Below, piece after piece: positions 1,091 to 63,444 of a DNA stretch of 64,000 nucleotides. The notes beneath the pieces were generated by a model. That model saw nothing but the letters and a program-made list of their open reading frames with translations, did not search any database and was not told the DNA's origin. The DNA is taken from the NCBI GenBank assembly GCA_051362555.1, contig CM120645.1:8928001-8992000 (forward strand), in the 5' to 3' direction. Numbering within the stretch: the stretch's first letter is position 1; each line of letters opens with the position of its first letter. The stretch is from Lingula anatina (lineage: Eukaryota > Animalia > Brachiopoda). Position numbers and translations under genes: made by a program.

Positions 1091-4000
1091 TGTATGTAGT
1101 CTCCTTGATACCCTGTTGGAATAACCTGCTGGCCATACTTATGGTGCAATGTAGCATTCCGTAGGGCCACGTACGACAGCTGTATGTTGTAGTTGGTACT
1201 GTTACATGGCACGGTGCACCCGGAACAATGCTTCGAGAAGTCCTGGTTAATGATACCTGCAACATATATGCATGACTGTATCAACTTTTAATTAACTTTC
1301 TAGGAGGAAAAAGGGAACGAAAAGAATTAAAGAGAGAGGAGAACTGGAGAACTGGAGAAGCAAAAAAGCAAAGGAAGACGAATGGGTACATTGTGTTAGG
1401 TGTAGAGAAATGTAGAGAGCGAAATAATAAGTAATGTGTGGCAAATGATACAGATATAAAGCTTAGTATAGAAACGCCGATTGTTAAATTTATTTCTGTG
1501 TGTGTGTGTCGCGTCGTTTCTTTAATTTCAAACCTATAACATTGTAAAGTGACTTATTCTTATGGCGTTGTTAGAATTCCCTTGGCATCCAGCTAAAACA
1601 ACACCATAATATATTTCAAAGAATTAAAAGTGATGACAATCACGACTAAAATTGCGAAGTATCGTTTCGAAAGTTTCTCTGCCTTTACGCCCAGCTTTGA
1701 TCACTCTTCTATTATTAATATTATAATTATAAACTTCCATATATGCTGCTTCAGCTTATCAATGAGATAATTGGAGTTGATTTTTAAAATTATCATTAAT
1801 TAAACTCATACAAAGATCGTATTAGTAACTTTAATCAACTCACGCATTTGTTCTCGTACACACTCGTGTATTATCTGCGGGCTGCATACGGGATGGGAAC
1901 CTGGAACAATTAACCAACAGTATAATAATCATATCGAGCTGCTAGTCAAATACATATTAAGAAATGAAACTGATGTTTCCAATTCTCTGTATGCTGAGAT
2001 ACTACTTGTGAAAGAAATTTATATCTTAACAGTAATTTTCAAAGTAGAGAATTTAGCAGGAGTACAGTAGCAAGAAATGCAAAGCATAAAGCACTGGCTA
2101 CGACCATTCAACGACGACGGTGGTACGTATGCATTTTAACATAGACATCCACGATTTTGGTCAAATAAGCTGCGCTTCACAAATAATATAAAAGGCCGCT
2201 TGCCTAGTTTTAAGGGATTTCCATCCATCACACGCTATACTTTTAAGTATAAATCAAAATTTACATTGGTCCAAGCATTTCTGAAAAGCTCGTACACCAT
2301 TACTGTTAAGTCATTCACGTAATTGGCTTTACGATTAAGGCAGATTGTGATCTCAGCTAAAACCTTAAGACATGTTTTTTAACAGACCCTTGGAAAGTAA
2401 AGGCCTACCTGGGTATTCTAAAGGTTTGCAGCCGCACTTTTCCACAGTCTTCTGAAGTTTACATTCAATGATACACCCAGAGAACGTGTACTTGGGGTAA
2501 TGATCCAGACGCAGAGATTTGTTACACTTCCCCCAAGGCGGCTCAATATTGACAGTCTGTAAGGATTAAAATGACCATCATTTAAAAACTATGTAAAGTA
2601 ATATTTTATCAAATTCCTTAAATTTTTTTTCTAAAATAGTTTTTTTTTAAATATCTACACCAAATACAGTTCCTCGAATAATCTATATACAATGAAAATG
2701 CCATGCAATCTGAATTCGTATCGATAGCCATAAAGTTATGTTTGATAGAACTAAGGGTTCATGCATTGTTTATCATGTGCCACTGTTTTATTAACTCCAG
2801 TTTATTTTGAGTTTATTTTGATAATTGTCGCTGTTATTTGCTGTAACATCATTATTACTATTATATTTTGCAAATGCCTCATTTGTTTTATTTGTGGTGT
2901 ATAGACATATGCCAAATATTAGAATATAGAAATTGTTTCAGACCAAGAGCATCAGCTTACCTGAAATCTTTTCAACCCGGCAAAGACGTGGAATCCCGGA
3001 GAAACCCCCAAACCTCTCGTCTCCATCAGCGGCGGCTCATACTGGGAATGGACTTGGAATACAATCCCGATTTGTTCCGTTTCGTCGGGAACATCGTCCA
3101 AATACTCGTGCTTTAAGTGACAAAAAAAAAAAAAAAAAAAAAGGATAAACCAGTATTGATAAGAGGTTACGCGAAATAGGTGATATCAATATAAATGTTT
3201 ATATGAGGCATTTCTTTTGCTCTTTGATTTGGTTTTAATTATGGGATGGGGTCAACTTATTCAAAAATTATTCCCAATATTATGACATATAATTTTGTGA
3301 GGGGTCTTGCCACGTGTTGTAAAAGCATCAGAATTAATGCTCAAGTTGATAAAGTAGTGTCAGTTGCTGGAAGGTTCGATGACCTAAATAATATGAAACA
3401 TTTATGGCACTCGAAACCTTGTAAAATATCACAAGTAAATAAACTTGGGTTATATAATAGTTGACACAGAATCGAATAGTTACTATACGAACGCATCTTT
3501 AAATCTGAAGCTACTCGCAAATACAGCTTGGTTGAGCAATAGGGGGCAGGTGGACTCCATGATATTTTTGTCAATTAACCGAACTGGTCGAACGTGCAGG
3601 ACGCATCAGGTGCTAGATGCTCGATGAATATATTGCACAAACCATTGAAAGTCTCACACCTGTTCTATATTGAGAACCAAATGCAGGCCGTTGCCCAGTC
3701 CCGGTTGGTCCTGATATCTCGATCTCTTCGCGTTGAGTTCGCCGTTGAAGGTATAACAGTTCCCATAGGAAGAAAAAACATGTTGGAAATCCTTTTCAAG
3801 GTCACACGACCTTCCCTTAAACTCACATTTCAGTACAGTTTCATTGGTTAATTGCCAGCCCTTTTCCATGCTGAAGTTCCCAAAATCGAATCCGTTTGGA
3901 TACAGTTCTGATATATTCGCCCACATTCCAGCCAATAAATCAGATACAGCGTCGGTTTCGCCTGATCCAGACTCCCCAGAGGAGCTTCCAGTAGAACCGT

Positions 4001-5107
4001 ATGGCCCAGTTGCGCCCGTAGATCCGGTCGAGCCCGTAGATCCGGTGTATCCCGACGGCCCGGGATAGCCCGAAGATCCGGTAGAGCCCGAAGATCCGTA
4101 ATATCTCGAAGGCACGGGATAGCCCGATGATCCAGTAGATCCCGAAGACCCAGTAGAGCCCGAAGATCCGTCATAGCCCGCAGGGACGGGATAGCCCGAT
4201 GATCCAGTCGATCCCGAAGACCCAGTAGAGCCCGAAGATCCGTCATAGCCCGAAGGCCCGGGATAGCCCGATGATCCAGTAGATCCCGAAGACCCAGTAG
4301 AGCCCGAAGATCCGTCATAGCCAGAATATCCTGAATAACTCGAATACCCAGAACCTGAATGGCCTGAGTATCCGTAGTAATGGTGTGGATAATCGTAGTA
4401 ATTGTATGGATTACCGTAGGAGTAGTGATAACCATAGCTATTGTAATAGTTGTCGTAGTAATCCGATGTCGCACTTGCCGCTTGTATGACGTAATAGTCG
4501 TCTGATGTCAGGAATTTCTTCATGTACCTTTACAGATTGAAACATAATTCAAATTCTGTTTATCATCACAAAGATGAAAGGAAATGAGTTTTGACGGCGT
4601 TACATATGATTTACAACCGCCCGGGTAAAAAACGAACTAATACTCAAGTCAGCAGCTGTCTTTACTTTATTTCGGCTGCCAATGTTGTTTACTGCATTGT
4701 TTAGAAATATATATTTCTGTAACTATGTATATACGACAAATGATTCATGTGAAACATATACATCGTGTCTGCCTTAAAATACACATTAAAACGTATTTTA
4801 AAATTAATATCAACTTTGTGGGAGGTCTCTATTATATGAACACTGACCTGTTGAAGTTACATATGGTAACCGCCGGGAACGCCAGTCTGGGTTCAAAGGT
4901 GATTTTTATTTCCGTGGATGTGGAGTAGTTAAAGTAGTTAATAAAGCGCAGGGTGATCATCCACGTGGCCATCCCCAATCCCGCCAATATGAACACTACC
5001 CAGGCTATCCTTCTAGAGATGCTTTTAGACGCCGCTGCCCTGGAAAAGCCGTGGGCAGTGGTGCTGGTGGCGAATTCCTTCTCAAGGCTTTCGTCCATTG
5101 ATACTGT
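1091..5107 (-). CDS. DEG/ENaC (acid-sensing ion channel-like) sodium channel subunit; 3' exons (TM2) lie outside the window
   Basis: Exons 5107-4848, 4527-3660, 3110-2961, 2556-2409, 1900-1844, 1256-1091 with GT-AG boundaries and compatible phases. Family motifs: STTAHG (HG motif), TM1 (IAWVVFILAGLGMATWMI), FPAVTICNFN, YGNCYTFN, GLHLVLNIEQ, VHSQYEPP, PPWGKC, Cys-rich thumb (YTFSGCIIEC...CGC...C...C), CTVPCNSTNY. No TM2/GAS motif found in 1-1090. Confidence 0.93.
3981..4331 (-). repeat. Coding 72-bp tandem repeat / Gly-X-Y tract within the DEG/ENaC ectodomain exon
   Basis: Unit ggatagcccgatgatccagt... recurs at about 4117, 4189, 4261 (72-bp period); translates as GYDGSSGSTGSSGSTGSSGYP(G/V)P(S/A). 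Confidence 0.92.
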
Positions 5108-12155: not shown

Positions 12156-15100
12156 TCAACTGCTGAAAAATCTGTCTTTAAGAATGCCCACAAAGTACTC
12201 TTCTGTTTTTAATAGGAATTCTTTATACCAGTTCAAAACCCTTGTTCTTCTTTCAATAACCTTGGATATTGACATTTTTTGTTCGGCTTTTAATATGTCA
12301 GGTAGTTCTTCCCATTTTTTGACATATATAACTGGGGCATCGTGTTCTTTTAATAATTGTAATGGTGCATTGTGGGATACCTTGGATTTCCCACAATTCC
12401 CTGGTGTCATGACATCCTCCACAACAGGCACAGAGCCCATTGATAACGCTTCATAAATTCTGTAACATTCTGTATTTTTCCCCACTGGGTTGAGGGTGAG
12501 ATCGCTCGTCTTTAATGCTTGGATAAAATCCTGTCTTGTATCTTCTGACTCTAGGGGGAGCCACCTGCAAACATCACCAGATTTTAGTTTAAGTCTTAAC
12601 ACATGGGATTTAAGAAGAAATACAAAACAACACTTCAAGAAGTGGTAGTACAGTTAAACCAGGTTGAGGTTGTTGAAGAAAAAAGACAAAAATTCATGCC
12701 TTAAAGATGTGTTTTAGTGTAAGCTTAACAGATGCACACAAGAGCAGCAATTTAACTCTATCCAAAATACACAAATCAAGTGCTTCAGTCATGATATTCC
12801 CAAGCAAAACAAATTTCACCTGAACTTTCAAAACAAAAATACATTTGTACTATAGTAATTCAACACATTCACAAAACAAACACAGTAAACAATTTCAGTA
12901 ACCATTTTCCACCCATTTTCTTAAATATTTCATAACATCAAAATAATTTATGACAGACTTACTCATATCTGGGCTTGAGGTAGCATAAGTTACCCATGTT
13001 GTGAGCAGTCAGAATTTTCATCAAAGTTTCTCTGGAAGAATTAGGGTACACAGTGCCCAAAAAGTTACATATATATTGCCTCGGTTTCATTGCATTGATT
13101 ATTGTGTCCCTAAACTTTGGAAAACCTCTGTACCTGAAATGGAAGAAAGAAATGTTATCATATCATTTCATAGAGCTTCACCATTAATTAAACATACATA
13201 GTTGTTGTCACTTTAAATCTCAAAATATGCACTTTGTGAGCATGACATGAGAAAGGCAGCAAATGCATCATGTTTTGTATAAACTTCAAATATGTCAGTC
13301 TCAGATAATCAGTGTAATTAGTATGTTTTTTTTTATCTTAATTTACTTACATACCTTTTAAATCAGTCAAACAATCAACCAGCACTGGTACTCTATAATT
13401 ATGATTAAATATTCTATTCTTTGTCTGATCACTCACGTAGCGACACCTAGTGGCCACTGGTAGAAGTTCACATTGTCCACATCTGGACTATCATAAACAA
13501 GAAACACCAGCTTCACCAGTCCTCCATTCTGAACTAAATACGGCTTGATCCACTCATTATCACACTGCTCATTGCCCAAGAGTATCACAGCTACATTCTT
13601 CAACTTTTCAAAAGTTGACAACGAATCGAGCCAAATCTTGGCAAAGTCTATTTTGGACTGTTCCCGTCCATTGAGAACAAGGACTAGGTTTTCAACATCC
13701 TTGGGGGCTTTGTGAGGGACAACCCCTGGTCCAGTCCTAAACCTGGCATGGGGAGACAAAATTTGGGAAAATGTAAACATTCGCTACCCTGGCAGTCTGA
13801 ACTGTTACCAGTTAAAAACTTAAAACTAAAAGCATTAACATTCATTTCGGACAGTGTTTTGAGCAAAAATGCATATACAGTGTAATTCATCTAAATATCA
13901 ATTAAAACAGAAATCATATTATGTAACATTATATTTACCACATCAAATATACATTCTATAACAACTGAATCAAAAAAGTTATAAAAAATAACATTTTCTA
14001 GTAGTCATATTACAAAATGAAAGAATACCACACTAAAATAATTTAGTGACAATAATCCCTTTTAGAGAAGTGCAATTCTTCAAATCACCTAAAAATGAGA
14101 TTCTGTATTCGCTTGCTGCCATATTGCCAGACTCCTCCCAACCTGTCCTCCAAGGTACTGTTCATGATGTGCTCCCACAGGTACAGACCTGAAACATTAG
14201 TCTGGCATTAAATTTAAACTGTCACTTATCTTTTTCTCTCAATAAATGGATAACTGTAACAATAATTTTCACAGAAGTCTGTACCAGTATGTCATTATTG
14301 TGAGCATGTTAATAGGTCTCTAAAAAGATTTGTTTAATATCAGCAAAATACTAAATAAAAAAAATTTAAAAATGGCTTAAATGTAATTTGGCAAAGTGAT
14401 ATTTATCCATTATTTCCTAATTAAATGTATTTTAGTCTGATGTACTTTGTTAATGTTATGTGTAGAAAGCTTCTAATTTATTACAGATTCCGGAGTCTAC
14501 TTTCAGCATTTATAAGTTTTTTACATTTTTTACTTTAAGATCTGCAGACCAAATACCACAGAATGGCCTTAGAATAAAATGGGAAATGTGATAAATATGA
14601 ATAAAGTCAAAAGTTTCTTCAAACAAAACATTGAAATTCATATCCTTACCAATGGCAGCTTTCCCCCATAATTCAATATTATGTATTTTCTGTGATGGGA
14701 GTTTTTTCACTGCACCAAGCTCCAACTGGCGCCATGGCAACATGCTGCCATGATGACTGTTGCCATGAAGTGCCTGCTTTTCAACATCTGACAATCTGAA
14801 CACTGGGGCCTGGAAAGGGGGTCTTCTCTGTCCACCTTTTTCATTCTCAAACTCCTCCCCCCACGGGTTCCAGTTTTCTTCTTTGCTCTTTGCAGAGAGC
14901 CTTGTACCACTTAAAGCTGGAAAAAAGTAGTATATCAAAATTAAATAAATCAGTCTGGGACGTTAGCCACTGGTAGCTTTTTCAAAATGCCAAAATGTGA
15001 GACAACTGGCTGTCAGTGGTGCAATCTATCATGTATTAACTTAATGTCAAGGGGACAGAGAGACAAAGAGAACACTGAAATCTAGAGTCATGGAACAAAG

Positions 15101-15536
15101 AGACAGAGTTGGTGGTGGTGGTGGTGGTGGTGGGGGGAGACAATTTATCTCTCATATGGGACAGCACTATAATTGATACACTAGTAAATATTGCTCAGCC
15201 TCAAGTAGTAACCCACACTATGACTGAAGAAGGTCACTGTCGTGATCGAAAGCTTTGTTTGGTACAGCGCTATATTTTGTAGCAATTGAACAGTTTAAGC
15301 GTACAAAAGAACCTGAATTAAAGTTTTAAACTGTACTTTTAATACTAGTACTGAAAAAAAAAAAAAAAAAAAAAACATTCGATGGTCTTCCCCCTACCAA
15401 ATTTGATCCCATTTTGGAAAGCTGTATTTTCTGCTTTTCTTAGTGTTTTCTGCAGCCATAAATACGTTGTGTAGCAGGTAAAGGCGACATAAATGCAAAT
15501 AATTCCCTGAGCAAGCTTCTTAAGCGAGCACCTCAT
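12156..15536 (-). CDS. RXYLT1: Ribitol-5-phosphate xylosyltransferase 1 (TMEM5)
   Basis: Exons 15536-15398, 14916-14650, 14188-14089, 13742-13437, 13133-12963, 12564-12156 (1392 nt, 463 aa). N-terminal TM anchor; motifs EENWNPW, ELWGKAAIGLYLWEHI, FRTGPGVVP, LVLNGRE, LLGNEQCDNEW, QWPLGVATYRGFP, CNFLGTVY, SDLTLNPVGKNTECYRIYEALSMGSVPVVED match TMEM5/RXYLT1. Confidence 0.93.
15223..15258 (+). ncRNA. Hammerhead core-like motif (stem I not supported)
   Basis: CTGAAGA-a-ggtcac tgtc gtgatc-GAAA-gctt: core and stem II intact, stem I pairing poor. Confidence 0.3.
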
Positions 15537-15819
15537 TCCGCCATCATGACGCGACCAATCCAAAGCTACAATTGCAGGTATCAACAAGTATCAACAAAGA
15601 TTTCTAACTTAAGTATGTGATTTTACATTTGTTTAACTAAACAAAAACCAATTTCCTTATATTTTAGATAATCTAATTACATGCAAAGGGCAGAATTTAT
15701 CGAAAAAAATCATGTTATTATCTCGAGGTAACAAGGTAGCACCGATACAACTACTTATCTCTCATTATCGAGATGTCGGTTTACTCCACGTGACCACTTC
15801 GAGATTTGCCATAGTCAAC
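15537..15819. promoter_or_regulatory. Bidirectional promoter shared by RXYLT1 and THUMPD3
   Basis: Only 283 bp separates the divergent ATGs (15536 minus, 15820 plus); E-box CACGTG at about 15787. Confidence 0.75.
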
Positions 15820-17967
15820 ATGTCTGCGCCCATCTCGCCTGTGGTGGAGGCCTCCTCCAGACAGGATTTGTGCGAAATTGAAGCCACAGTAACCAGCGGA
15901 TTTGAAGTCGTAGCATTGCAAGATGCCGTCGAGAAGTTGGGCTGTAAAGTCGTCAGAGGAAGAGGCAGGATTTTTATTCACATCCCTGTGAAGCAAGCGG
16001 AAAAGGTATCGTTATCGCGACCGTGTTTTGGTTGTGAGCGCTGCCGTTTTCCCCGTCATTCTTTTGTCCCGAATGATTTGTAATGGATTTTACCCTGTTT
16101 ATTAATGCAGTTATAGGATGATGTGAATGGCTTTTATGTTGTGAAGACTTATTTGTTCTTTGTACCTATTTAGGAAGGGTTTAAGTCGGCTGGTAAAAGC
16201 CAGACATAAGCCAGACACTATTACGTAACACGCGTGGCGTAACTGCCCTCATTTACGTCTGGTGTATTGATTCTCAAGATGACGGATTTAAATTGAAGTG
16301 TTAAATAAATAATGGCGGAAAAAGGCAGAATTCAAGGTAAATAGCGACTATGGGATAAGAAATACGTAAAATATGGAAGGCACGTTCGTTCATTTAACGG
16401 TACTTACATACTAGCACTACCAGTATAGGAAGCAGATATGGCAATTGTGATACCATACTGGCAGGTCGTAATTTGAAGACGGATGGATGAAAAATTCATC
16501 CGGGGAGAGTTATATTGTACATTTGACCATTTTGAGAGCTATAAAATACTGTAGAATATTTATTAAGCATTTACCTGTAGCTTATACTGTGATTAAATGT
16601 TTTAGTGACCTAATTTTGTTTCATTAAATAAAAGATAAGTCCTTTAAAATGATAATTTTTCTGTTAATTACAATTTACCCCGCAGATTGAGAGAAATATG
16701 GTGACATTGTTCAGTAAAGACTTATAGACTTTTCATCATATAATAATATGTAATGCTGCTTAACACTAATTCTAAAAGTAAAGGTAACTGGTTTTCTTTC
16801 TAAAATTCTGAAAGCAAGATTTTTTTTTGCAAGTTATTTGTCAGTATTCCAATTTTGATGATTTGCTTGTTATAGATAAATATTAGAGTGATGATGATAT
16901 TTGCAAGTTATATACTCAGCATTTATATTGATGTTATAATTTAAAATAATGAAAGAATCACAGTCTTGTAAAAGTAACTGCTTTATAGTTTTATTAACAA
17001 ATGAAAAAATTAGTTTTGTTCTGTTCTTAGAAAACAAGTGACCTTAAAGTCATTTATGCTAATGTCTTTGCCTTGAAAGCTTTTTCGACATAATGGTCAG
17101 CAAAATTTTGTAAGAAAAATAAATGAAAATAAAAAAATATATATAAAGGTTCATTTACAAATGATATAACAACCTCTGATAATGTAAGACATTTTCAAAT
17201 GAATAATCCAAACATTGATTATATCCAGCTCTGTCCTATTTAATTTTATTACTATTTCTCCTTTGGTTCAACTGGAAAAAGTACAAAAAAATTCTATAAG
17301 ATACTATCTTGCCTTCAAGGGAAAATTAATAGGGATAAAATATAGGTTGACAAATCATGATATTGTTTGATATCTGTTTGTTTCTAGGGGACAGTGCCAG
17401 CATGCACATTGCTATTTAATTATATTTGATGTAATTTGACATAGGGTCATGTGTTAGGTCATAATGTGTGGAAATGATTTCAAACTTCTTATTATAAAAC
17501 TGCAGGTGTGTGTGTGTTGATTGTAATAGTATATTCTAATTTTGGTCCTTCCAGGTGATTGCATTGTTTTGATTACTCCAGTGTTGCTTAATCTGCACTG
17601 TACTGAATGACTCCAGATCTTCAGGTTTAGCCACAGGCTAAATATGTTGTTGTAAATAATTGTGTATCTGTAGGCTTTCTAGTACATACTTTATATAAAT
17701 ATTATAATAGTCAATTATTTGAGGGACGTGATTTTATTATTTTAAATGTAGATAGCGTTAGTTGAGTTCATTGATTGATATTATGGAGTGTGCTATAAGT
17801 AATCTTCTACAGGAAAGTCCATGTTTGCCAGTGGCCCTGTACATTTTATCTGTAATACATGATGTCAGGGAAAGATTGCTTATTTTTAATTCTCATCAAT
17901 ATCCTGTATGCAGTCCTTTAACTTCCTAATGCTGATGCTTCAAAAATATGATATATATATATACCCT

Positions 17968-18063
<96 letters not shown>

Positions 18064-21000
18064 AGTCAAGGAAAGAGGAAAGATGAGCAAAAGATATTAT
18101 GTGTCTTGGGTTACATCTAATATTGAATTGATCATAATAATTAAAAATATTTTATTTATATATTTATTTCACAGGTGCTACAGCTTGGGGGTGTTGATAA
18201 CTTGTATGTGGTAGTGAAACGATACGAAGATTTCAACTTTTCAAAGGACCAGGTTTGTGTTTTTTTTTTCTTTTTTTTTTAATTTCTGAGTCACCAAGAA
18301 TTAATAATGAAATCAAAATTATTAAAGTGATGTCAAATTTGTAAGTTTTGGTACCCATTGAACCTTAACTTGATGTTATATTCATGCAATTATAACAATT
18401 ATTAAACATTAGACATTTTTTTTTTGTGTGTGTGTGTGTGTGTGTGTTTACTTTTATTTATGTTTATACAAAATCACCCATAATGACATAAGTGACACAG
18501 TTGCAGAATTACAAACTTAAGGAATAATGCAACATGTCCTACAGCCCAATATACACAGTAGCATGCTGTGTGATAGCGAGACATTCTATTCAATTTGTGT
18601 ATATTGGTCTAGGAGACAGCAGTGTATTATTTGTCAGACATACATACATACATACATACAAAGGGATATTGTACATGGTTTCCACCCAAACACCCTTATT
18701 TTTAATAGAATATGCAGATATCAAAGAATGGATATCAGCCCAACAGTAGATATTAAGGCTTAGCATATTTCAAAGTTGTTATACTGCCACCAGTAAATAT
18801 GAATTGTCAGCGATGATTGAGGGAACAGGCAAATTATCACGTGCATGGACAGCTTGTTGTGGATTTGACATATTAATTGCAATAATCAATAAGTTGGAAC
18901 TTGCATAAGCAACACAAGAGTGACTGCCTTTAACGTGGTTCAGAGCTGAACTGAATAATGAATGTAATGTGAACTTATATAATACATATAGCAAGTAATT
19001 TCCTGGTGTCTGCTAGTTGGGGGTCATGAAGATCTGATCAATATTTCTGTTAAAGGTACATATGAACTGAGTGTGGATTCCCAGTAACACATATAAACCA
19101 CTTCTACTACGTAGTTTCTTATGCGTCTTAAATAAATTTGACAAGGGATAAACTAAATAAATTACTTGATCAACCATAAAAGAGCTTTTAAAAAAATTTT
19201 GGTTGTAAATTTAACCTTCTTATCTGCCCCATTTACTGACAACATACTAGTAGAAATTAAGCTAGCATAAAAATTTGTTCAAATATTATTTATGGTAATA
19301 TTGAACAATGTGTTTTGGTGATTCTCTTGGTTATACTATTTGAAACTATAGATATGTTGGTCAGCTTAAGTGGCAAAAAATTGACTTCATATGCTGTCTG
19401 TTGATTGCTTGGACAGTGGTTGAATTTTAGAAAAATTCCCTTCCTTTTTGTGGCAGAGGATATTTATTTGTTTATTTTAATGAAATAGATAAGAAAGCTA
19501 AAATCAGTGCAAGTCTATTAGCACTTGTGTGAAGTAAAATTATTGGTCAAAGGAACAGCATTTTTTTTTTTTTTTTTTTTGCAAATGGACTAGCCTATGG
19601 ACTAAAGCCATCAGACTTCAAGACTTGGTATAAATTAAGTCTTCATTCATAAATACTAGATAAATGCAATAACTTTTTACATGATTGCATGGTTGAAAAT
19701 TATTTGCAAACCTAGCATACATTGATACTGCAAGCAATGGGAAAGCACCCTGAGCTTCAGAGATAACTTGCCACTAACCTCTTCACTATAGCCTATCTTC
19801 ATCGTGTCAAGTTACCTCTGACCACATTCGATAGCCCCCGCCGCCCGCAAAACAAATTTAAAGCCCGCACTCAATAACTCATTGAACGATCTAGCCAATG
19901 AACGCGAACGAGTCAAAGTGCGCTTTGTTCAAATCCGGACCAATTAAAGATAAGGCTGAATATCAGGGACTTGCCGTAACCTGTGGGCAAAATACATCAT
20001 CCCTCAGTAGATAATGATGCAGGGCCTCAAACTGCTCTGGTTTCAATTCCGATATACTCATATTTTGCAAAGAATCAAGAGATAACTTAACACATTATTT
20101 TACGTAGTCACTCGTAGGAGACGCCATGCCTTCTTTGTGTACGGTTATGCACTTGGAACTACTCGGATGTCTCTGCACTTGACAATAACTTTGTTGTTAG
20201 TATGGAGCTTGCGGAATCAGCCGAGGATTGCCAATTGACGGTCAACCAATCAGCGTTTTCACCAAACTTTGGTGAAAAATTTTGAAACATGGATTTGATT
20301 GGCTTATGTAAACTAGGTCAAACTATTTTCGTCAGAGATAACTTGACACGATGAAGATATGCTATAGTGAAGTGGTTAGTGGCAAGTTATCTCTGAAGCT
20401 CAGGGTGTGGGAAAGTGTCTTTTACACGTTTTGTTTGTTGGTTTGTTTTTATAATTCAAATAACTAAATTTCTTTTTTTTCTGTATTTTAAAACAGGAAG
20501 AGGTAATGAAACAAATCAAAGGTATAGTGCCCGAAGTCAACTGGGAGTTGGGCCTCCACGTCTGGTCAAAGTTCATCAAATTTGCACACCAGGTGTCGCC
20601 ACATCCTATAGACCCCTCAGCCTGCCAATCACAGATATCGATACAAAAACAACAACCAGTTAGCCAACCAAAAGTGATAATCCAACAGAAAAATGGGGAC
20701 AAGGACTGCCTTAATTCTAAACAGAACAGCAATGTGACTGAAGTGGCCCCACACAGTGGCGATTGTTTCTTTTCCTCCAAACAGGACGATGCTGTTCACA
20801 GTGATACTGACCATTCTGTGATGGGGAAACCCACGTCTCAGTGTAGCATACTGACCACTAGGTTGAAACAAGCATTAAGGACCACTCCTTTAGACAACAG
20901 TGACGAACCTGCCGCCAAAAAGAAGAGGACTTTCAATCCGAATTTGCCCAAATTTCGGGCCACTTGTTACAGGACAGGGAATAATCATAGTTTTCAGTCG

Positions 21001-24000
21001 ATGGAGGCTGCGTCCCAATTTGGAGGGACTATTCAGGATTATTTTGGATGGAACGTGGATCTGAAGAATCATGATTTGGAAGTGGTTCTGAATATAGCAG
21101 ATAATGACGTATATGTTACCCTTGGGCTGACCACGGAAAGCCTGCACAAGAGAAATATTGTGGATTTTGGACCCACCACACTAAAGACAACTATAGCTTA
21201 TAACATGCTACGGTAGGAAAAATATGTTGTTTTATGCACATTTTCTTTGTTAACTGCCTGAAATAATGCTGAAGCAATTGATACTGCAAGCTTGTGTAGA
21301 CATTTTAATTTCTTATGAAGAAATTCCATTATATGTATGTGTGTAGTTGTGTAACTGCAGTTTCAAAATGTAATTTTTTTAAAGTTATCAGTCTTTTCCT
21401 TCATGCATTTCACATTGTTTCATGATGTTTTTTTCTTTAAGCTTTTGAGAAAGTTTGAAAAATGTTATATCCTTTTTATTATGTTACAAGACTTAGGTGC
21501 ATTTTACAGTGATTATTACCTAAAAGTACATGTCACTTATAACTACATAACTAAAGCTATTATATGGTAACAGTTTTAAAGTAAAAGTACAAAAAGACTT
21601 TTGAAAAAATAATGAATGACAATGGGCACAATTTATACTTAAAATTTATTATGCAAAGCAATATTGACACAATTTGATTTTGCTCATGTATAAGAAAATT
21701 ATATCAAATTGTTTCTTTCCAGATTATCTCATATCCTGCCTGGCGATGTTGTTTGTGATCCTATGTGTGGGGGTGGCTCTATATCTATAGAGGTATGTGA
21801 TCCTTTGTGTGGGGGTGGCTATATATCTATAGAGGTATGTGATCCTTTGTGTGGGGGTGGCTCTCTATCTATAGAGGTATGTGATCCTATGTGTGGGGGT
21901 GGCTCTATATCTATAGAGGTATGTGATCCTATGTGTGGGGGTGGCTCTATATCTATAGAGGTACGTGATCCTGTTTGGGGGTGGCTTTATATCTATAGAG
22001 ACATGAAAAATGAGGAATTTGAATTCGAATTAAATTTACTAGTTTTGTGGAGAAACACTTTTACATTCCTATCTCAAAATCTACAAAGAGGGACATTGGT
22101 TTAGTATATTTGATGCTGTTACTAGGGCATCTATGTACTTTTGAATCTTCACTTACTTTGTTTACTACCAGGTCTTTCATTTTGATAATATATTTTAGAG
22201 TATGATATTGGATTTTACTACTTCTTATAGGGTGCTGTTAACTGGCCCAATGCCTACCATATATGTGGTGACATCTATATTATCTTGTCCTTCAGGGTGC
22301 TGTAAACTGGCCCAATGCATATCATATATGTGGTGACATCTATATTATCTTGTCCTTCAGGGTGCTGTAAACTGGCCCAATGCATATCATATATGTGGTG
22401 ACATCTATATTATCTTGTCCTTCAGGGTGCTGTAAACTGGCCCAGTGCGTATCATATATGTGGTGACATCTATATTATCTTGTCCGTCAGGGTGCTGTAA
22501 ACTGGCCCAGTGCGTATCATATATGTGGTGACATCTATATTATCTTGTCCTTCAGGGTGCTGTAAACTGGCCCAATGCGTATCATATATGTGGTGACAAC
22601 CATGAGAAGGCCTGGCCTAGATGTCAGCAGAACCTGGACTTTGTCCGTGAGAAGAGGAGAGTGAAAGGAAGGTAGGGTATATTTACAAATTTAAATTTCA
22701 CCTTTATTGTATTTTTAATCAATAACGAGGAAGTGGGATGCTGTGTGGCCGATCTTTTCAGAACCTTTTTGGAAAGTTGAAACTTGTGTGTTTAAATTCA
22801 GCATTAGAAGAAAAAGATAGGCAGTGTTTTCTAGTTTTCTCTGTAATAAGTCCCAGTTGTAACCACCTGAAATATATTAATTTTCTGGATTTTTGGATTT
22901 TTAATTACCTGTTACCTACCTACCCCATGTCTATACAGGTGCATAAGGCTGAAAACCAAATAAAAAATTTTTACATGAACTTACTTTTCAGTATTAATGA
23001 GCAAGGGAAAATAAAAAAATTATATTATTAACTAAAGATAACTTTTAAAATCAGGTCGTCAGCTACCTGTGATGTGATGAAGTGGGACGTGACTAACCTA
23101 CCTCTACGAGATAACACAGTGGACGTCTTTATTACAGACTTGGTAAGTTGGTTCTTGTTTATTAATTTGTTATTTATTCATTTATTACAGTTGCAAGTCA
23201 TACTGTTTTAAATCATGAAATTACAGCGAGGATTGGTCATGTTGTGAAAATGTTTTGTGTCAGTTGTGATTTATTTATATTTTCTCCTTTGAAAACCCAC
23301 TTGTTTACCAGTGTCTTTAAGTCAGCCACTATGGCACCTTTTTTTAATTTTTTTCAGTTCTACTTTTACATTTTTTGTTCAGTGTAAATGACTCTATACT
23401 GTATGTTGATTATCCAGTAACATTCTAACCCGATCTACACTGATTAAAGCAAAATGCACTGTTGTTGTAATTATTATAAAAACTATACATGTTATGTTAT
23501 AAACTGGATATTAATAATGGAATTTTCTTTCCTCATTTCAGCCATTTGGTAAAAGGTAAGATAATAATTTGTGAGTAAGATTGCATTAGAGTTCCAATAT
23601 CAGTTTTGACTCAACTGGGTATTTGCTTTCACAGAAAAAATAAATCACAATATTTGTCTTAAAAGAAAAAATTTAAAAGCAGCTATGATGCAGTAAGTAT
23701 GATATGCTAATGCAAAAACAAGACAGTGAATACTGTTTTACATTTTGTCAGCTACACCCTATATACCACATGCTTTGTTTGTAACAAATATATGTAACAA
23801 TTAACGGTAGCTGGGGCAGTGGGGAACCACTATATACAGAGTGGTGAATAATTGCTGTGCTGCACTTCTGCATTAAAATTATATGTATTTATAAACATCA
23901 GTTATTTCCACTTCAGACTGGGCTCCACCATGGACAACAGAGTGCTGTACCCTAAAGCATTAACTGAGATGGCCAGAGTGTGCAAACCTAAGACTGGGAG

Positions 24001-24621
24001 AGCCTGTCTGCTCACACACGACAGGAGGAGCATTGCCAAGGTGTGTGTGTGTGTGTGTGTGTGTGTGTAACTGTGTGTGTGTGTGTGTGTGTGACACTCA
24101 CTGACTGCTAGGTGGTATAGTGGCCAGGAACCTCTTATAAATGACATTGCTCACATCAGTCTGATGAAGGCCTACATTCAGGTTGGCCGTAAGCTAACGG
24201 TGTGAAAGTTTTTTGGCTTGTGTTTGATAATTTTCATCTATGAAGACAAGATCTGTTGCAAAGTAACGAATGCATGAGCTTAATTAATTTTTTTTATTAT
24301 GTTTTAATTACTTTGCATTTTTTTGCAATTATATTTATTTATTTATTTATTTTTTGTGTGTGTGTGTGTGTGTGTTAGAGAGATGGAAAGGTCTGTTGCA
24401 TATGTGTGAGCGATATAATAATTAATATCAGTAATCAAGTCTTCCTCGTCCACCCCCAGGCCATGCAGGCAGTTAGTCACCTGTGGCACCGAGGCATTGT
24501 ACTGTGGATCAACATAGGCGGACTGGCTGCTGGGGTCTACATGCTGCACAGGAATGCTGATGATGGAAAGAAGGAGAGAAAAGAGGCGAGGGGAGGACAA
24601 AACAGTGCTGCAGGACAATGA
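15820..24621 (+). CDS. THUMPD3: THUMP domain-containing protein 3, tRNA (guanine-N2) methyltransferase
   Basis: Exons 15820-16005, 18175-18252, 20497-21212, 21723-21792, 22556-22671, 23055-23142, 23542-23555, 23917-24040, 24460-24621 (1554 nt, 517 aa). Motifs ATVTSGFE, RGRIF, KFRATCYRTG..HSFQSMEAA, QDYFGWNVDL, SLHKRNIVDFGPTTL, DPMCGGG (SAM motif I), WDVTNLPLR..VDVFITDLPFGKR, EMARVC, WINIGGL. Confidence 0.93.
17971..18061. repeat. (TA)n microsatellite
   Basis: About 45 TA units, directly visible. Confidence 0.97.
19054..19395 (+). mobile_element. MITE family B diverged copy
   Basis: ttaaaggtacata...gtggattcccagtaacacat..aaaccacttctacta...aagggataaact...aaaaaattgactt matches family B. Confidence 0.7.
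19746..20407. mobile_element. Non-autonomous DNA transposon with about 77-bp TIRs and 8-bp TSD (hAT- or P-like), in THUMPD3 intron 2
   Basis: caccctgagcttcagagataacttgccactaac...ctctgac (19746-19822) is the reverse complement of 20331-20407; TGGGAAAG duplicated at 19738-19745 and 20408-20415. Confidence 0.9.
21751..22000 (+). repeat. 42-bp tandem repeat (6 copies) duplicating the THUMPD3 exon 4 3' end and splice donor
   Basis: gt(a/t)tgtgatcct(a/t)tgtgtgggggtggctctatatctatagag at 21751, 21793, 21835, 21877, 21919, 21961 (last copy 40 bp). Confidence 0.95.
22231..22598 (+). repeat. 65-bp tandem repeat (about 5.7 copies) duplicating the THUMPD3 splice acceptor and exon 5 start
   Basis: ggtgctgtaaactggcccaatgcatatcatatatgtggtgacatctatattatcttgtccttcag at 22231, 22296, 22361, 22426, 22491; the partial copy at 22556 is the true exon start. 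Confidence 0.95.
24041..24093. repeat. (GT)n microsatellite starting at the THUMPD3 exon 8 donor
   Basis: AAG|gtgtgtgt... with one interruption (aact). Confidence 0.95.
24153..24205 (+). ncRNA. Degenerate minimal type I hammerhead ribozyme-like motif
   Basis: cacatcagt-CTGATGA-a-ggcctac attcag gttggcc-GTAA-gc-TA-acggtgtg: stem I and stem II can pair, but the core GAAA reads GTAA. Confidence 0.4.
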
Positions 24622-28965: not shown

Positions 28966-31900
28966 ATGGAGCTCTTCGCCATAACCTCGAGTACGGGCAA
29001 TCTCTCTCTCAGAGAGATGGACTTCTCTTCATCTAATGGCGACACATCAACTAATGTTGTCAATAATACTGACAGATCTTTGACGGAATTCAATACGACG
29101 GAATCTAAGTGAGTAAACTAATGAAGGGGGAAATGTAAATGAAACTGCGAATATCTTGTCATGCTGCTTAATTCAGTCCATAAGTTTTAATCTATAAGAA
29201 GATTTGGGTAAATTTAATATCTTTTATGTGATTGATCATGAATGGCGGTTGTTCTGCCTCTTTTTTTTTTCAATACGCACATTAAAGAAAATAGGTACAT
29301 GAATAACTGATGTAAATGTTTTTCATTTTTCTGTTTACCCTAATTTTCTTGTCGTGGTTTTGAAATTGTATGTATAGACAAATATTAGAAAAATCTACAA
29401 AAAAGTAAAAGCTAACAAAATCAATTCTTCAGTTATTGAAAAATCGATTGTAATAATATAATCGTTATAATAACTATTATAATTATTATTATTTATTTTT
29501 AAAAATCTTTGAATTATTTTTTATTTCACAACATTTTAATCTTATTACCAGTTCATTTTATTCCTTTTTATTCTTAAATATATTCCATCTTATTGTCATT
29601 TTTTTCTGCTAAAGCGTATTGCGGGCATCAAATTCAAAAAGTTATGTTGCTTTTTACAGGGGTGTACTTTATCAAAACAAATACCATGCGTTCTTGGTAC
29701 ATAGTAAGGTTGATGCTGAGTTTGTGGAAAGTGTCATGGACACATTGGAGAAAAGGGGCGTCAGCTGCTGCTACTCAAAGAAGGATTTCCGAGCAGGTAC
29801 TACAACAGTGACTTGCATTGACGAAGCTCTTGAAAAGTGCACATACGTTATCTGTTTTCTTTCAAAAGACTTTCTTACTAGTCCTTGGTGCAAGCATGAA
29901 AGAGATATGGCGCTGCATAAGGCTGCCGAGACGAGTGAAGACATCATCGTTCCTATCTTGATGGACGCCTCCTTGGAAGATTTACCCAGAAATATGCGGC
30001 GCTTGACTCATATTAGATACAATGAATTTGATTTTGAGAAGAAACTGTTCTTGTCACTAGGAGGTGAGTATCGCAAATAAAATGAAAATAGAAAGTACAT
30101 TAGAACACTGATGTATTATTTTACACAAGCTATCGATGCCAAATGGATTCACTATGACTAGCGGATCCCAAATTCTTCGAAAATAAAAAAAGTTTTGTAT
30201 TCTTAATTCACTCTGCCATATGAATTAGTAGAAAAGGCCAATATCACTAAAGTTGTTATATTTTCTTTCGCTTGCTATCCTTTTTGGAGGAGGGTACCTG
30301 CCGACGGGGAAAGGGGGGGGGGGGTTGACCTAGCTGGATAAGGGGATAAGACCCACAGTGGCCATTCCCAGATATGGCAATGCTATTTCTAAAGCGGGTT
30401 TAAGTTCTTGTGAAATGAGCAGGTACATGTACCTATACGTAATTAATACGCAGCCCATAGCCAGCAATTTCAAAAGGGGGGTTCTTTTTCTGAAAAAGTG
30501 GACTTTTTACCATAAAACCTTCATGTACCTAGATAAAATTTTACCCAGAGGGGACCTTTTCCCGCCAAAAAGGGGGGTTCATTCGAACCCCCGAAACCCC
30601 GGCTACGGGCCTGATACGTTAAATTTTCAAATTTATTTTTTCATCTTTTCAGTTCCGGAAGGAAACTCCCGTCCAACATACAGTGATCTAGAGACTGCGA
30701 ACGCAGAATTGAAGACAAAGTTGGAAGATGCTCAAGAAGTAATCAGAATGAAAGACGAGGCCTTGGTTCAGCAGGAAATGCACATCAAGCAATGCGAAGC
30801 GAAGTTGAACCAGTATGAAGCGGGTATATCCTTAATTCTTCGAAAGTAAAAAAGTTTTGTATTCTTAATTCACTCTGCAATATGAAGTAGAAAAAAAGGC
30901 CAATATCACTAAAGTTGTTATATTTTCTTTCGCTTGCTATCCTTTTTGGAGGAGGGTACCTGCCGACGGGGAAAGGGGGGGTGACCTAGCTGGAGAGAGG
31001 GGATAAGACTCACAGTGGCCATTCCCAGATATGTCAATGCTATTTCTAAAGCGGGTTTAAGTTCTTGTGAAATGAGCAGGTACATGTACGTATACGTAAT
31101 AAATACGTTAAATTTTCAAAATTATTTTTTCATCTTTTCAGTTCCGGAAGGAAACTCCCGTCCAACATACAGTGATCTAGAGAATGCGAACGCAGAATTG
31201 AAGACAAAGTTGGAAGATGCGCAAGAAGTAAGCAGAATGAAAGACGAGGCCTTGGTTCAGCAGGAAATGCACATCAAGCAATGCGAAGCGAAGTTGAACC
31301 AGTATGAAGCGGGTACGGCGGACTTGGAGCGACAGTGCCACGATCTTCAGCAGAGGCTTGATAAGAAAGATACCGAACTAAAAGAAATGAAAATCAAACT
31401 GAATGAGAAGAGAAATGAGCAGGATAAAAAGAAATATTTGGCTCCATCAACAACCGATAAAACTTTACCAATTTGGCATGGTGACGGCATGGATGAAACA
31501 GTGGTGAAAGAGTTCCGGCACTTACTTACTTTGGGAAAAGACTACGAAAAAGAGTCAAGGTGGCAAGACGTCATCGATACTTTGAAAAGTGCAGAGCGTA
31601 TTTTGAAGGAGAGCACAAACAGCAGGATCCCAGAAAATATGATCTTTGTAACGTTTAGACTACTGTGGAGAGCTTACAGAAAAGTTGGAGACTACCAAGC
31701 GTCCATCAACTACTGTAATAAAACTTTAACTTACCAGCAAATGGTGTTTGGTCCGGACTGTGTGAATGAAAACGTAGCACAGTGCTATTACAGTTGCGGC
31801 CTCGCATACGAAATGTGGGGAAAGCTTAATGATGCAATAGAGTTGCACAGTACATCTGTCACGTATTACAGAATTCTGTGTGCAAGACTCGACTGTGGTA

Positions 31901-62395: not shown

Positions 62396-63444
62396 GTACT
62401 ACCATGGCCCATAGGAGCCTACGCGTGCGTCTTTTAGACGCCCCTTTACATGCGAAAACGACAAGGCCTATGCCGAGTTCGTCTTTTACTACAGAGCTTC
62501 GAGAGCCGAAAATGACATGGCTGTGTCTCTTTCGCCACTTACTGAACTCCACAGTTGCGAGATTGACACGACCCATGTCGCGTTCGTCTCTCAAATGACA
62601 CTGTTATAAAACATGAAATAGGCATAACGTGTGATTTTCGCAGCTGAATAAGTAGACCCTTATAAACGAAGTTGACGTAACTTGAGAGTCATGTCGCTTT
62701 CAACTCTTACAAACCTCCAACAAAATCTATCTCCACACAGACGCACGCGACATGTACTATTGGACATGGGTCAGTTGAAACCCTATTAACCTAAAGGGCT
62801 CATGTTACTTTCTGCCAACTCTTATATGTCAAATCCAATTAATTTGAAACAGTGTTGTGCTGTCCCAAAACATTTTTTTCATTTGAATCCCATCAAAATT
62901 TAGTGCTATCTAGATAACAGTGTGGCTAATTGCTTGTAATAATTATATGGCCTCATATTTTTATTTTCAAGGATTCAAATATAAAGGGTTTTAAGACGGT
63001 CCTTCTGTTTCAAATTAATTAGCTGAAAGTAACATGAGCCATTTAGGTTAATGTCGCTTTCAACTGACCCATGTCCAATAGTACATGTCGCGCGCGTCTG
63101 TGTGGAGATAGATTTTGTTGGAGGTTTGTAAAAGTTGAAAGCGACATGACTCTAAGGTCACGTCAACTTCGTTTATAAGGGTCTACTTATTCAGCTGCGA
63201 AAATCACACGTAATGCCTATTTCATGTTGTATAACAGTGTCTTTTGAGAGACAAACACGACATGGGTCGTGTTAATCTCGCATCTCTGGAGTTCAGTAAG
63301 TGGCGAAAGAGACACAGCCATGCCATTTTCGGCTCTCAAAGCTCTGTAATAAAAGACGAACTCGGCATAGGCCTTGTCGTTTTCGCATGTAAAGGGGCAT
63401 CTAAAAGACGCACGCGTAGGCTCCTATGGGCCATGGTATAGTAC
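62396..63444. mobile_element. Large foldback element (about 1.05 kb) with about 450-bp inverted arms
   Basis: 62396-62853 is the reverse complement of 63005-63444 at high identity (ORFs 62358-62594 minus and 63244-63441 plus give near-identical peptides); AT-rich spacer of about 150 bp; no transposase. Confidence 0.88.

What the first reader, a model, noticed from the sequence alone, without database searches (positions are those of the whole stretch)
21751..22598. One intron bracketed by tandem copies of both of its exon-intron junctions (THUMPD3 intron 4)
Seen: of the 763-bp intron (21793-22555), 208 bp at the 5' end are repeats of the upstream exon end plus donor and 325 bp at the 3' end are repeats of the acceptor plus downstream exon start; only about 230 bp (22001-22230) is unique. 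This gives 5 donors x 6 acceptors, yet only the outermost pair (21792 to 22556) yields the canonical protein. Two unrelated minisatellites centred on the two splice sites of the same intron seem unlikely to be chance. Inference: a junction-targeted duplication process (e.g. splicing-, R-loop- or RNA-templated repair linked), and/or a splicing rule that selects the exon-proximal site among identical decoys; a possible route to intron sliding or gain, or an NMD-based dosage control.
Basis: partly seen in the sequence, partly recalled or inferred. Interest (0 to 1): 0.85.

Follow-up and report, generated by a model that had tools for sequence, protein, structure and literature searches.

The report
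Two independent splice-site "mirages", one intron
In a tRNA-methyltransferase gene of the lamp shell Lingula, both ends of one intron carry short repeats of the neighbouring exon edge; RNA reads mostly use the outermost splice sites and each repeat occurs without the other in related DNA, so this is likely a chance pairing of a repeat type already known from lancelets, though here the repeats have likely replaced the original splice signals.

Summary
THUMPD3 intron 4 (21793-22555) of Lingula starts with a 42-bp array (5 donors) and ends with a 65-bp array (6 acceptors). A DNA run from another study holds both, so this is no assembly artefact. RNA joins the outermost pair in 18 unambiguous reads; 8 reads placed at an inner donor are probably ambiguous placements. 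Such repeats are known: amphioxus 'mirages', human F7 VNTR, CBS 844ins68. This scan has noted them often, also elsewhere in this genome. A paired origin is not supported: one divergent run has only the acceptor array, another form only the donor array. Two points are new here. (1) The original donor is innermost and dead in array-bearing forms (GTATGA without the array; ATATGA and ACATGA with it), so the array is likely locked in. (2) The repeated acceptor is a 22-nt piece no more like the intron's own upstream acceptor (11/22) than unrelated acceptors are, so it likely replaced that acceptor rather than copied it. Verdict: new member of a known kind, with a testable splice-site-replacement twist.

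The parts
21723..21792 (+). THUMPD3 exon 4 (70 nt); its last 42 nt are unit 1 of the donor array; working donor GAG|GTATGT
   Evidence: RNA joints into it (24 reads) and out of it (17+1 reads); Pfam PF01170 match
21751..22000 (+). 42-bp donor array: last 39 nt of exon 4 plus GTA, in frame (14 codons); 5 GT donors; sixth unit degenerate (40 nt)
   Evidence: present in runs X1, X3, X6, absent in X10
22001..22006 (+). likely original donor, now dead (ACATGA here, ATATGA in a second form in X6, GTATGA in array-free X10)
   Evidence: tables 5 and 5c
22001..22230 (+). unique part of intron 4 (230 bp), ending in the likely original acceptor (TAG at 22228-22230)
   Evidence: no RNA depth 21986-22273 in 4 of 4 runs; an X6 contig runs from it through 22273 straight into unique exon 5 (table 7)
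22231..22273 (+). innermost copy of the first 43 nt of exon 5; differs from the working copy at 3 positions, all synonymous
22274..22555 (+). 65-bp acceptor array: five 22-nt pyrimidine-rich pieces ending in CAG, alternating with 43-nt exon-5 copies; each exon copy supplies a branch-point-like TGGTGAC 25 nt before the next AG (predicted)
   Evidence: present in X1, X3, X6 (one form), X10; absent in a second X6 form
22556..22671 (+). THUMPD3 exon 5 (116 nt), working acceptor at 22555
15820..24621 (+). host gene THUMPD3, 9 coding exons, 517 aa

Best explanation
Intron 4 of Lingula THUMPD3 carries two splice-junction minisatellites ('mirages') that likely arose separately by local DNA duplication and are likely tolerated because splicing uses the site nearest each exon, leaving the mRNA unchanged. 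SHOWN: both arrays exist in DNA from more than one study, each occurs without the other in some form, and most RNA joints use the outermost pair. INFERRED, donor side: a slip between the near-identical GTTTG in exon 4 and GTATG at the donor duplicated 42 bp. The first junction became the working donor (GTATGT, one base closer to consensus than the old GTATGA). The old donor, now innermost and unused, mutated (GT to AT, then AC), so collapse to one unit would now leave no donor. INFERRED, acceptor side: 43 nt of exon 5 were duplicated together with a 22-nt piece that ends in a new AG. The piece is repair filler or the intron end of a diverged allele. The last junction works as acceptor, the old acceptor survives upstream, and array-free forms therefore remain possible. 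Unequal exchange then expanded both arrays. Only duplications whose extra copies fall on the intron side of a usable site would survive selection, which explains the outward-facing symmetry without any targeting of this intron.
For: (4 of 11 DNA or unlabelled rows laid): X1 and X3 each have one contig from 21934 to 22287 joining both arrays. X10 has one contig that starts 9 nt before the repeat, fits through GTATG at 21797 and jumps to 22028, with zero depth 21842-21985, so it has no donor array. The same contig reaches 22288, and a unit contig has depth 304 against 45, so it has the acceptor array. X6 has a second form with 59 nt of donor array followed by ATATG, which after 22273 runs straight into unique exon 5, so it has no acceptor array. 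(4 of 9 RNA runs laid): joint 21792-22556 in 17 reads (X12) and 1 (X15); no joint to an inner acceptor listed. The four inner-donor products would be stop-free, so their scarcity is not NMD. Inner copies carry amino-acid-changing differences (4 on the 5' side, 2 on the 3' side), as expected of intronic DNA. Literature: the same choice of site in F7 (PMC1557585, abstract and discussion read), CBS 844ins68 (PMC2630376, passages) and amphioxus mirages (PMC3087553, PMC3902484, passages).
Against: One search also lists a joint from the fifth donor (21960) in 5, 1, 1 and 1 reads. In X15, X18 and X16 the left part is 37, 33 and 33 nt, inside the 39 nt identical to exon 4, so I read them as ambiguous placements. 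For X12 this is not resolved, and the tool flagged only 1 read as fitting two places. X12 depth also leaves about two reads' worth of bases on each array (144 and 130 bases), while introns 3 and 5 have none; low use of inner sites is not excluded (95% bound from 0 of 18 unambiguous joints is 15%). The second X6 form may be an allele, a paralogue or another animal. X10's GT is read from a joint position, and only 40 of 93 difference rows and 32 of 107 contig pieces were shown. The RNA samples have no matching DNA, so their array state is inferred from shared exon variants. Three forms cannot root the history. The source of the 22-nt piece was not found.
Confidence: 0.72

Rival explanations
1. 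A splicing-linked or RNA-templated process (R-loop, reverse splicing, repair guided by the transcript) targets both ends of one intron together.
For: Both arrays sit exactly on splice sites. 2 of 5 non-coding arrays with period 30 or more in this window do so, roughly P 0.02-0.05 if the window has 60-100 splice sites (assumed, not counted). A third junction-spanning duplication lies at 30126-31315. Earlier notes claim enrichment at exon edges elsewhere in this genome (unchecked).
Against: Each array occurs without the other. No unit contains a spliced exon4-exon5 junction, which an mRNA template would give. Same-intron pairing has chance 1/15 given two arrays in this gene, and 12-51% of 8-intron genes would show one at per-edge rates of 0.125-0.29 (the higher rate comes from an unchecked note).
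Confidence: 0.08
2. Duplications start preferentially near exon edges in this genome (a mutational bias, for example from chromatin or transcription), but each edge is hit independently; survival alone does not explain the enrichment.
For: The rough enrichment in this window and unchecked notes of 16 of 55 edges and about one intron in four in other pieces of this genome. It is compatible with the best explanation and would add a mutational cause to it.
Against: No genome was held, so I could not separate mutation bias from selection. The window sample is 5 arrays.
Confidence: 0.35
3. The arrays are a selected regulatory device: inner acceptors feed NMD and inner donors make a longer, inactive enzyme, tuning THUMPD3 dose.
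For: All 25 inner-acceptor products carry stops and 4 inner-donor products duplicate the DPMCGGG segment in frame. A few X12 reads may lie on the arrays.
Against: Either array can be absent; no joint to an inner acceptor listed in 4 of 4 RNA runs; inner copies drift at non-synonymous positions.
Confidence: 0.05
4. Assembly artefact.
For: No long read spanning the arrays was seen; copy number rests on the assembly.
Against: Array junctions and raised depth on the units in X1, X3, X6 and X10, four studies; units differ from each other in ordered ways.
Confidence: 0.02

Closest known systems
Amphioxus 'mirage' minisatellites (Adh3, globins BflGb6 and BflGb9, troponin C, PGBD5); PMC3087553 (6 passages read), PMC3902484 (4 passages read); the Adh3 paper itself not seen
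   Same: [quoted passage not shown]
   Different: Here in a brachiopod, at both ends of one intron. Related forms show the original donor dead and the repeated acceptor not derived from the intron's upstream acceptor. The passages I read report neither point.
Human F7 intron 7 37-bp VNTR (PMC1557585; abstract and discussion read)
   Same: Five to nine identical donors; only the most upstream is used, also where downstream ones would keep the frame.
   Different: F7 units carry the intact donor with intron sequence, and the pseudo-sites were shown functional by mutagenesis. Here the unit has only GTA of intron, so the working donor exists only at a unit-unit junction; function of inner sites is untested.
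Human CBS 844ins68 and the CBS 31-bp VNTR c.1444_1467+7 (PMC2630376; passages read)
   Same: A duplicated intron/exon junction in which the exon-proximal site is used and mRNA is normal; a polymorphism; one gene carrying both a junction duplication and an exon-end VNTR.
   Different: One extra copy, a true copy of the junction, and the two CBS repeats are on different introns.

Membership tests
Mirage minisatellite (donor array) | Head-to-tail repeat whose unit spans an exon-intron boundary of the host gene | tested here: met
   Unit = last 39 nt of exon 4 + GTA
Mirage minisatellite (acceptor array) | Head-to-tail repeat whose unit spans an exon-intron boundary of the host gene | tested here: met
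   Unit = working acceptor (22 nt) + 43 nt of exon 5. The repeated acceptor is not a copy of the older upstream acceptor.
Mirage minisatellite | Many units keep GT or AG signals | tested here: met
   5 GT and 5 repeated CAG
Mirage minisatellite | Regular splicing is not disturbed | tested here: met
   18 unambiguous outermost joints; 8 joints at an inner donor probably ambiguous; low inner use not excluded
Mirage minisatellite | Length instability between haplotypes | tested here: inconclusive
   Presence or absence differs between forms; copy number cannot be read from contigs
Mirage minisatellite | Somatic instability (reported for Adh3 in PMC3087553) | not testable with these tools
   Needs long reads or PCR from tissues of one animal
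Mirage minisatellite | Edge units excluded from homogenisation | tested here: met
   Last 5' unit is degenerate (40 nt); first 3' exon copy differs at 3 sites, the four inner ones at 1
Intron gain or sliding by tandem duplication | A new or shifted intron position in the coding sequence | tested here: not met
   Array-free forms have donor and acceptor at the same coding position; protein aligns without insertion at this site to 8 homologues
THUMPD3 family (host gene) | THUMP domain followed by UPF0020 methyltransferase domain | tested here: met
   PF02926 and PF01170 above cut-off; 515/517 identity to P0001

The most novel reading that the evidence does not exclude
Mirage arrays are a ratchet that swaps out splice signals without changing the mRNA. 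Once a duplication creates a new outer splice site, the original site is freed to decay; when it does (as the donor has here), the repeat can no longer be lost, so a neutral minisatellite becomes essential. On the acceptor side a short foreign piece plus a branch point borrowed from the duplicated exon has built a new working acceptor. This locus would catch both steps across living forms and would explain why such arrays pile up at exon edges in Lingula, lancelets and other marine invertebrates.
Probability: 0.4. Interest if true: 0.58.

Novelty: new member of a known kind. Interest (0 to 1): 0.33.

Why it matters
The repeat type and the outermost-site rule are known, so the locus is not a new system. 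Its value is as a natural experiment. Three of the four possible array states occur in public data, the donor side separates splice-site choice from NMD (inner donors keep the frame), and the dead original donor makes a sharp prediction: no functional allele with a single donor unit. If confirmed, this gives a simple reason why splice-junction minisatellites persist, a point the papers read leave open (PMC3087553 calls their mechanism of generation unclear).

Tried and rejected
Genome-wide enrichment and pairing test: not possible, no genome held. No RNA holder was listed by word index; RNA came from runs with the same species label. Source of the 22-nt piece: best ungapped matches elsewhere in the window 16/22; longest exact match nearby 9 nt, reversed, about 40 nt upstream of the old acceptor; I judged this chance in AT-rich DNA without a formal test. 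The idea that the piece is a lightly diverged copy of the old acceptor is rejected at 11/22, equal to unrelated acceptors; a very old, saturated copy cannot be excluded. mRNA-templated origin rejected: no unit holds a spliced junction. The 595-nt joint was not accepted as proof of inner-donor use; it also appears in X18, which shares two private exon variants with array-free X10. Contig depth was not used as copy number. Literature searches returned no paper on paired arrays at one intron, on mirages in Lingula, or on a repeat replacing and locking in a splice site; the library is open-access only, I read listings for most hits, and the Adh3 and troponin C papers were not seen. PMC3342872 (passages) discusses ratchets in general, not this case. 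Supplements of PMC3087553 (mirage alignments) were not opened and may show decayed inner sites.

Full report
OBSERVATION. Both arrays are in the sequence as described. TRF gives a 42-bp unit at 21754-22000 and a 65-bp unit at 22229-22598; of its 40 rows these are the only long-period arrays inside this gene. The host is THUMPD3: Pfam THUMP and UPF0020 matches, and a 9-exon model of 517 aa that is 515/517 identical to the named Lingula anatina protein P0001. That THUMPD3 is a tRNA m2G6 methyltransferase comes from hit names; that DPMCGGG is the SAM-binding motif is recalled. Intron 4 is 21793-22555, phase 0. Of 30 donor-acceptor pairs, 1 is canonical, 4 are open with +14 aa per unit, and 25 carry stops.

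ANATOMY. The donor unit is the last 39 nt of exon 4 plus GTA; the next unit starts TGT, so each junction reads GAG|GTATGT (7 of 9 consensus positions; the fifth is GTACGT, also 7). The sixth unit is degenerate and is followed by ACATGA, no donor. The acceptor unit is 43 nt of exon 5 plus a 22-nt piece ending in CAG, present 5 times and nowhere else in the window at up to 3 mismatches. The innermost acceptor (22230) has a different 22-nt flank: 11/22 identical to the piece, the same as 4 of 8 unrelated acceptors (4 mis-set rows dropped). A branch-point-like TGGTGAC at the end of each exon copy lies 25 nt before the next AG (6 of 7 consensus positions; a prediction only). The innermost exon copy differs from the working copy at 3 sites, all synonymous (chance about 0.009 if neutral), which is 3 of 8.7 synonymous sites, close to the 6 of 21 seen in exon 6 between this window and divergent run X18. 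This hints that it comes from an exon that was coding until recently.

RNA. Four of nine listed RNA runs were laid (122, 7, 14 and 10 reads). The outermost joint is seen in 17 reads of X12 and 1 of X15; neighbouring introns 3 and 5 give 24 and 15 reads in X12. No joint to an inner acceptor is listed (listing needs 3 reads), and 21986-22273 has no depth in any run. Against a clean picture: a joint from the fifth donor is listed in 5, 1, 1 and 1 reads. In three runs its left part is 33-37 nt, within the 39 nt identical to exon 4, and one of these runs (X18) shares two private exon variants with X10, which lacks the donor array. I therefore read these as ambiguous placements, but for X12 this is not settled, and about two reads' worth of bases remain on each array. 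Minor use of inner sites is open.

DNA. Four of eleven DNA or unlabelled rows were laid, from four studies. X1 (possibly the assembly's source, so not independent) and X3 each hold a contig 21934-22287 that joins both arrays; X6 holds 22033-22287. X10, about 10% different in the intron, has one contig from 21745 through GTATG at 21797 to 22028 and on to 22288, no depth at 21842-21985, and high depth on acceptor units: acceptor array only. X6 has a second form, 21 differences in 252 nt, with 59 nt of donor array followed by ATATGAAAAAT, which after 22273 goes straight into unique exon 5: donor array only. Whether that form is an allele, a paralogue or a second animal cannot be told. So the states both, donor-only and acceptor-only all exist. 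The sequence after the last donor unit aligns with what follows the single donor in X10, so the original donor is innermost and has gone from GT to AT to AC. Only 40 of 93 difference rows and 32 of 107 pieces were shown.

MECHANISM. Inferred: separate local duplications, expansion by unequal exchange, and survival only where the site nearest the exon works. On the donor side, collapse to one unit would now join exon 4 to ACATGA and remove the donor, so at least two units are likely required. On the acceptor side the old acceptor remains and an array-free form exists. The 22-nt piece is repair filler or the intron end of a long-diverged allele joined in by misaligned exchange; the synonymous-only differences lean to the second, but its source was not found.

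CHANCE. Given two arrays among this gene's 16 edges, they share an intron with probability 1/15. In this window 2 of 5 non-coding long-period arrays span splice sites, roughly P 0.02-0.05 under an assumed 60-100 sites, so a general exon-edge excess is plausible. The genome-wide test could not be run.

KNOWN KINDS. Ebner et al. (PMC3087553, passages) describe 'mirages' at both kinds of boundary in amphioxus, with normal splicing, haplotype differences and divergent edge units; PMC3902484 (passages) adds PGBD5 and troponin C. Human F7 uses only the most upstream of 5-9 identical donors (PMC1557585). CBS 844ins68 uses the exon-proximal copy of a duplicated junction (PMC2630376). The term 'mirage' and those two amphioxus papers came to me from earlier scan notes, which list many such cases, several in this genome. 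A word search of the notes for a dead original donor or filler acceptor returned none, and eight paper searches returned no such report; both are narrow searches.

VERDICT. Real, expressed normally, a new member of a known kind. The pairing is likely chance. The replacement of both original splice signals, and the likely lock-in of the donor array, is the part worth following. Interest 0.33.

Noticed in passing
window 30126-31315: A third junction-spanning duplication: about 490 bp of intron end plus the first 172 nt or so of an exon, repeated once (98% over the junction part) in a TIR- and TPR-domain gene; the first copy carries an insertion of about 170 bp. Use in RNA not tested.
   Followed up: partly
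window 23542-23555: A 14-nt micro-exon (THUMPD3 exon 7); RNA loose ends in 4 of 4 runs read through it into exon 8.
   Followed up: partly
window 19746-20407: 92-nt inverted arms (89%) 478 nt apart in THUMPD3 intron 2; looks like a small non-autonomous transposon.
   Followed up: no
window 62400-63438: 381-nt inverted arms (96%) 277 nt apart, a fold-back element.
   Followed up: no
window 3987-4351, - strand: An 18/54/72-bp coding repeat (Gly-Ser-rich) inside an exon of an amiloride-sensitive channel (ASC family) gene.
   Followed up: no
runs X10 and X18 laid on window 21050-23200: Runs under the same species label differ from the window at about 29% of synonymous sites in exon 6 (X18) and fail to align over much of introns 3 and 5 (X10), which suggests cryptic lineages.
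   Followed up: partly
window 12159-15820: An RXYLT1-domain gene on the - strand appears to lie head to head with THUMPD3 (for the domain; start position judged by eye).
   Followed up: no
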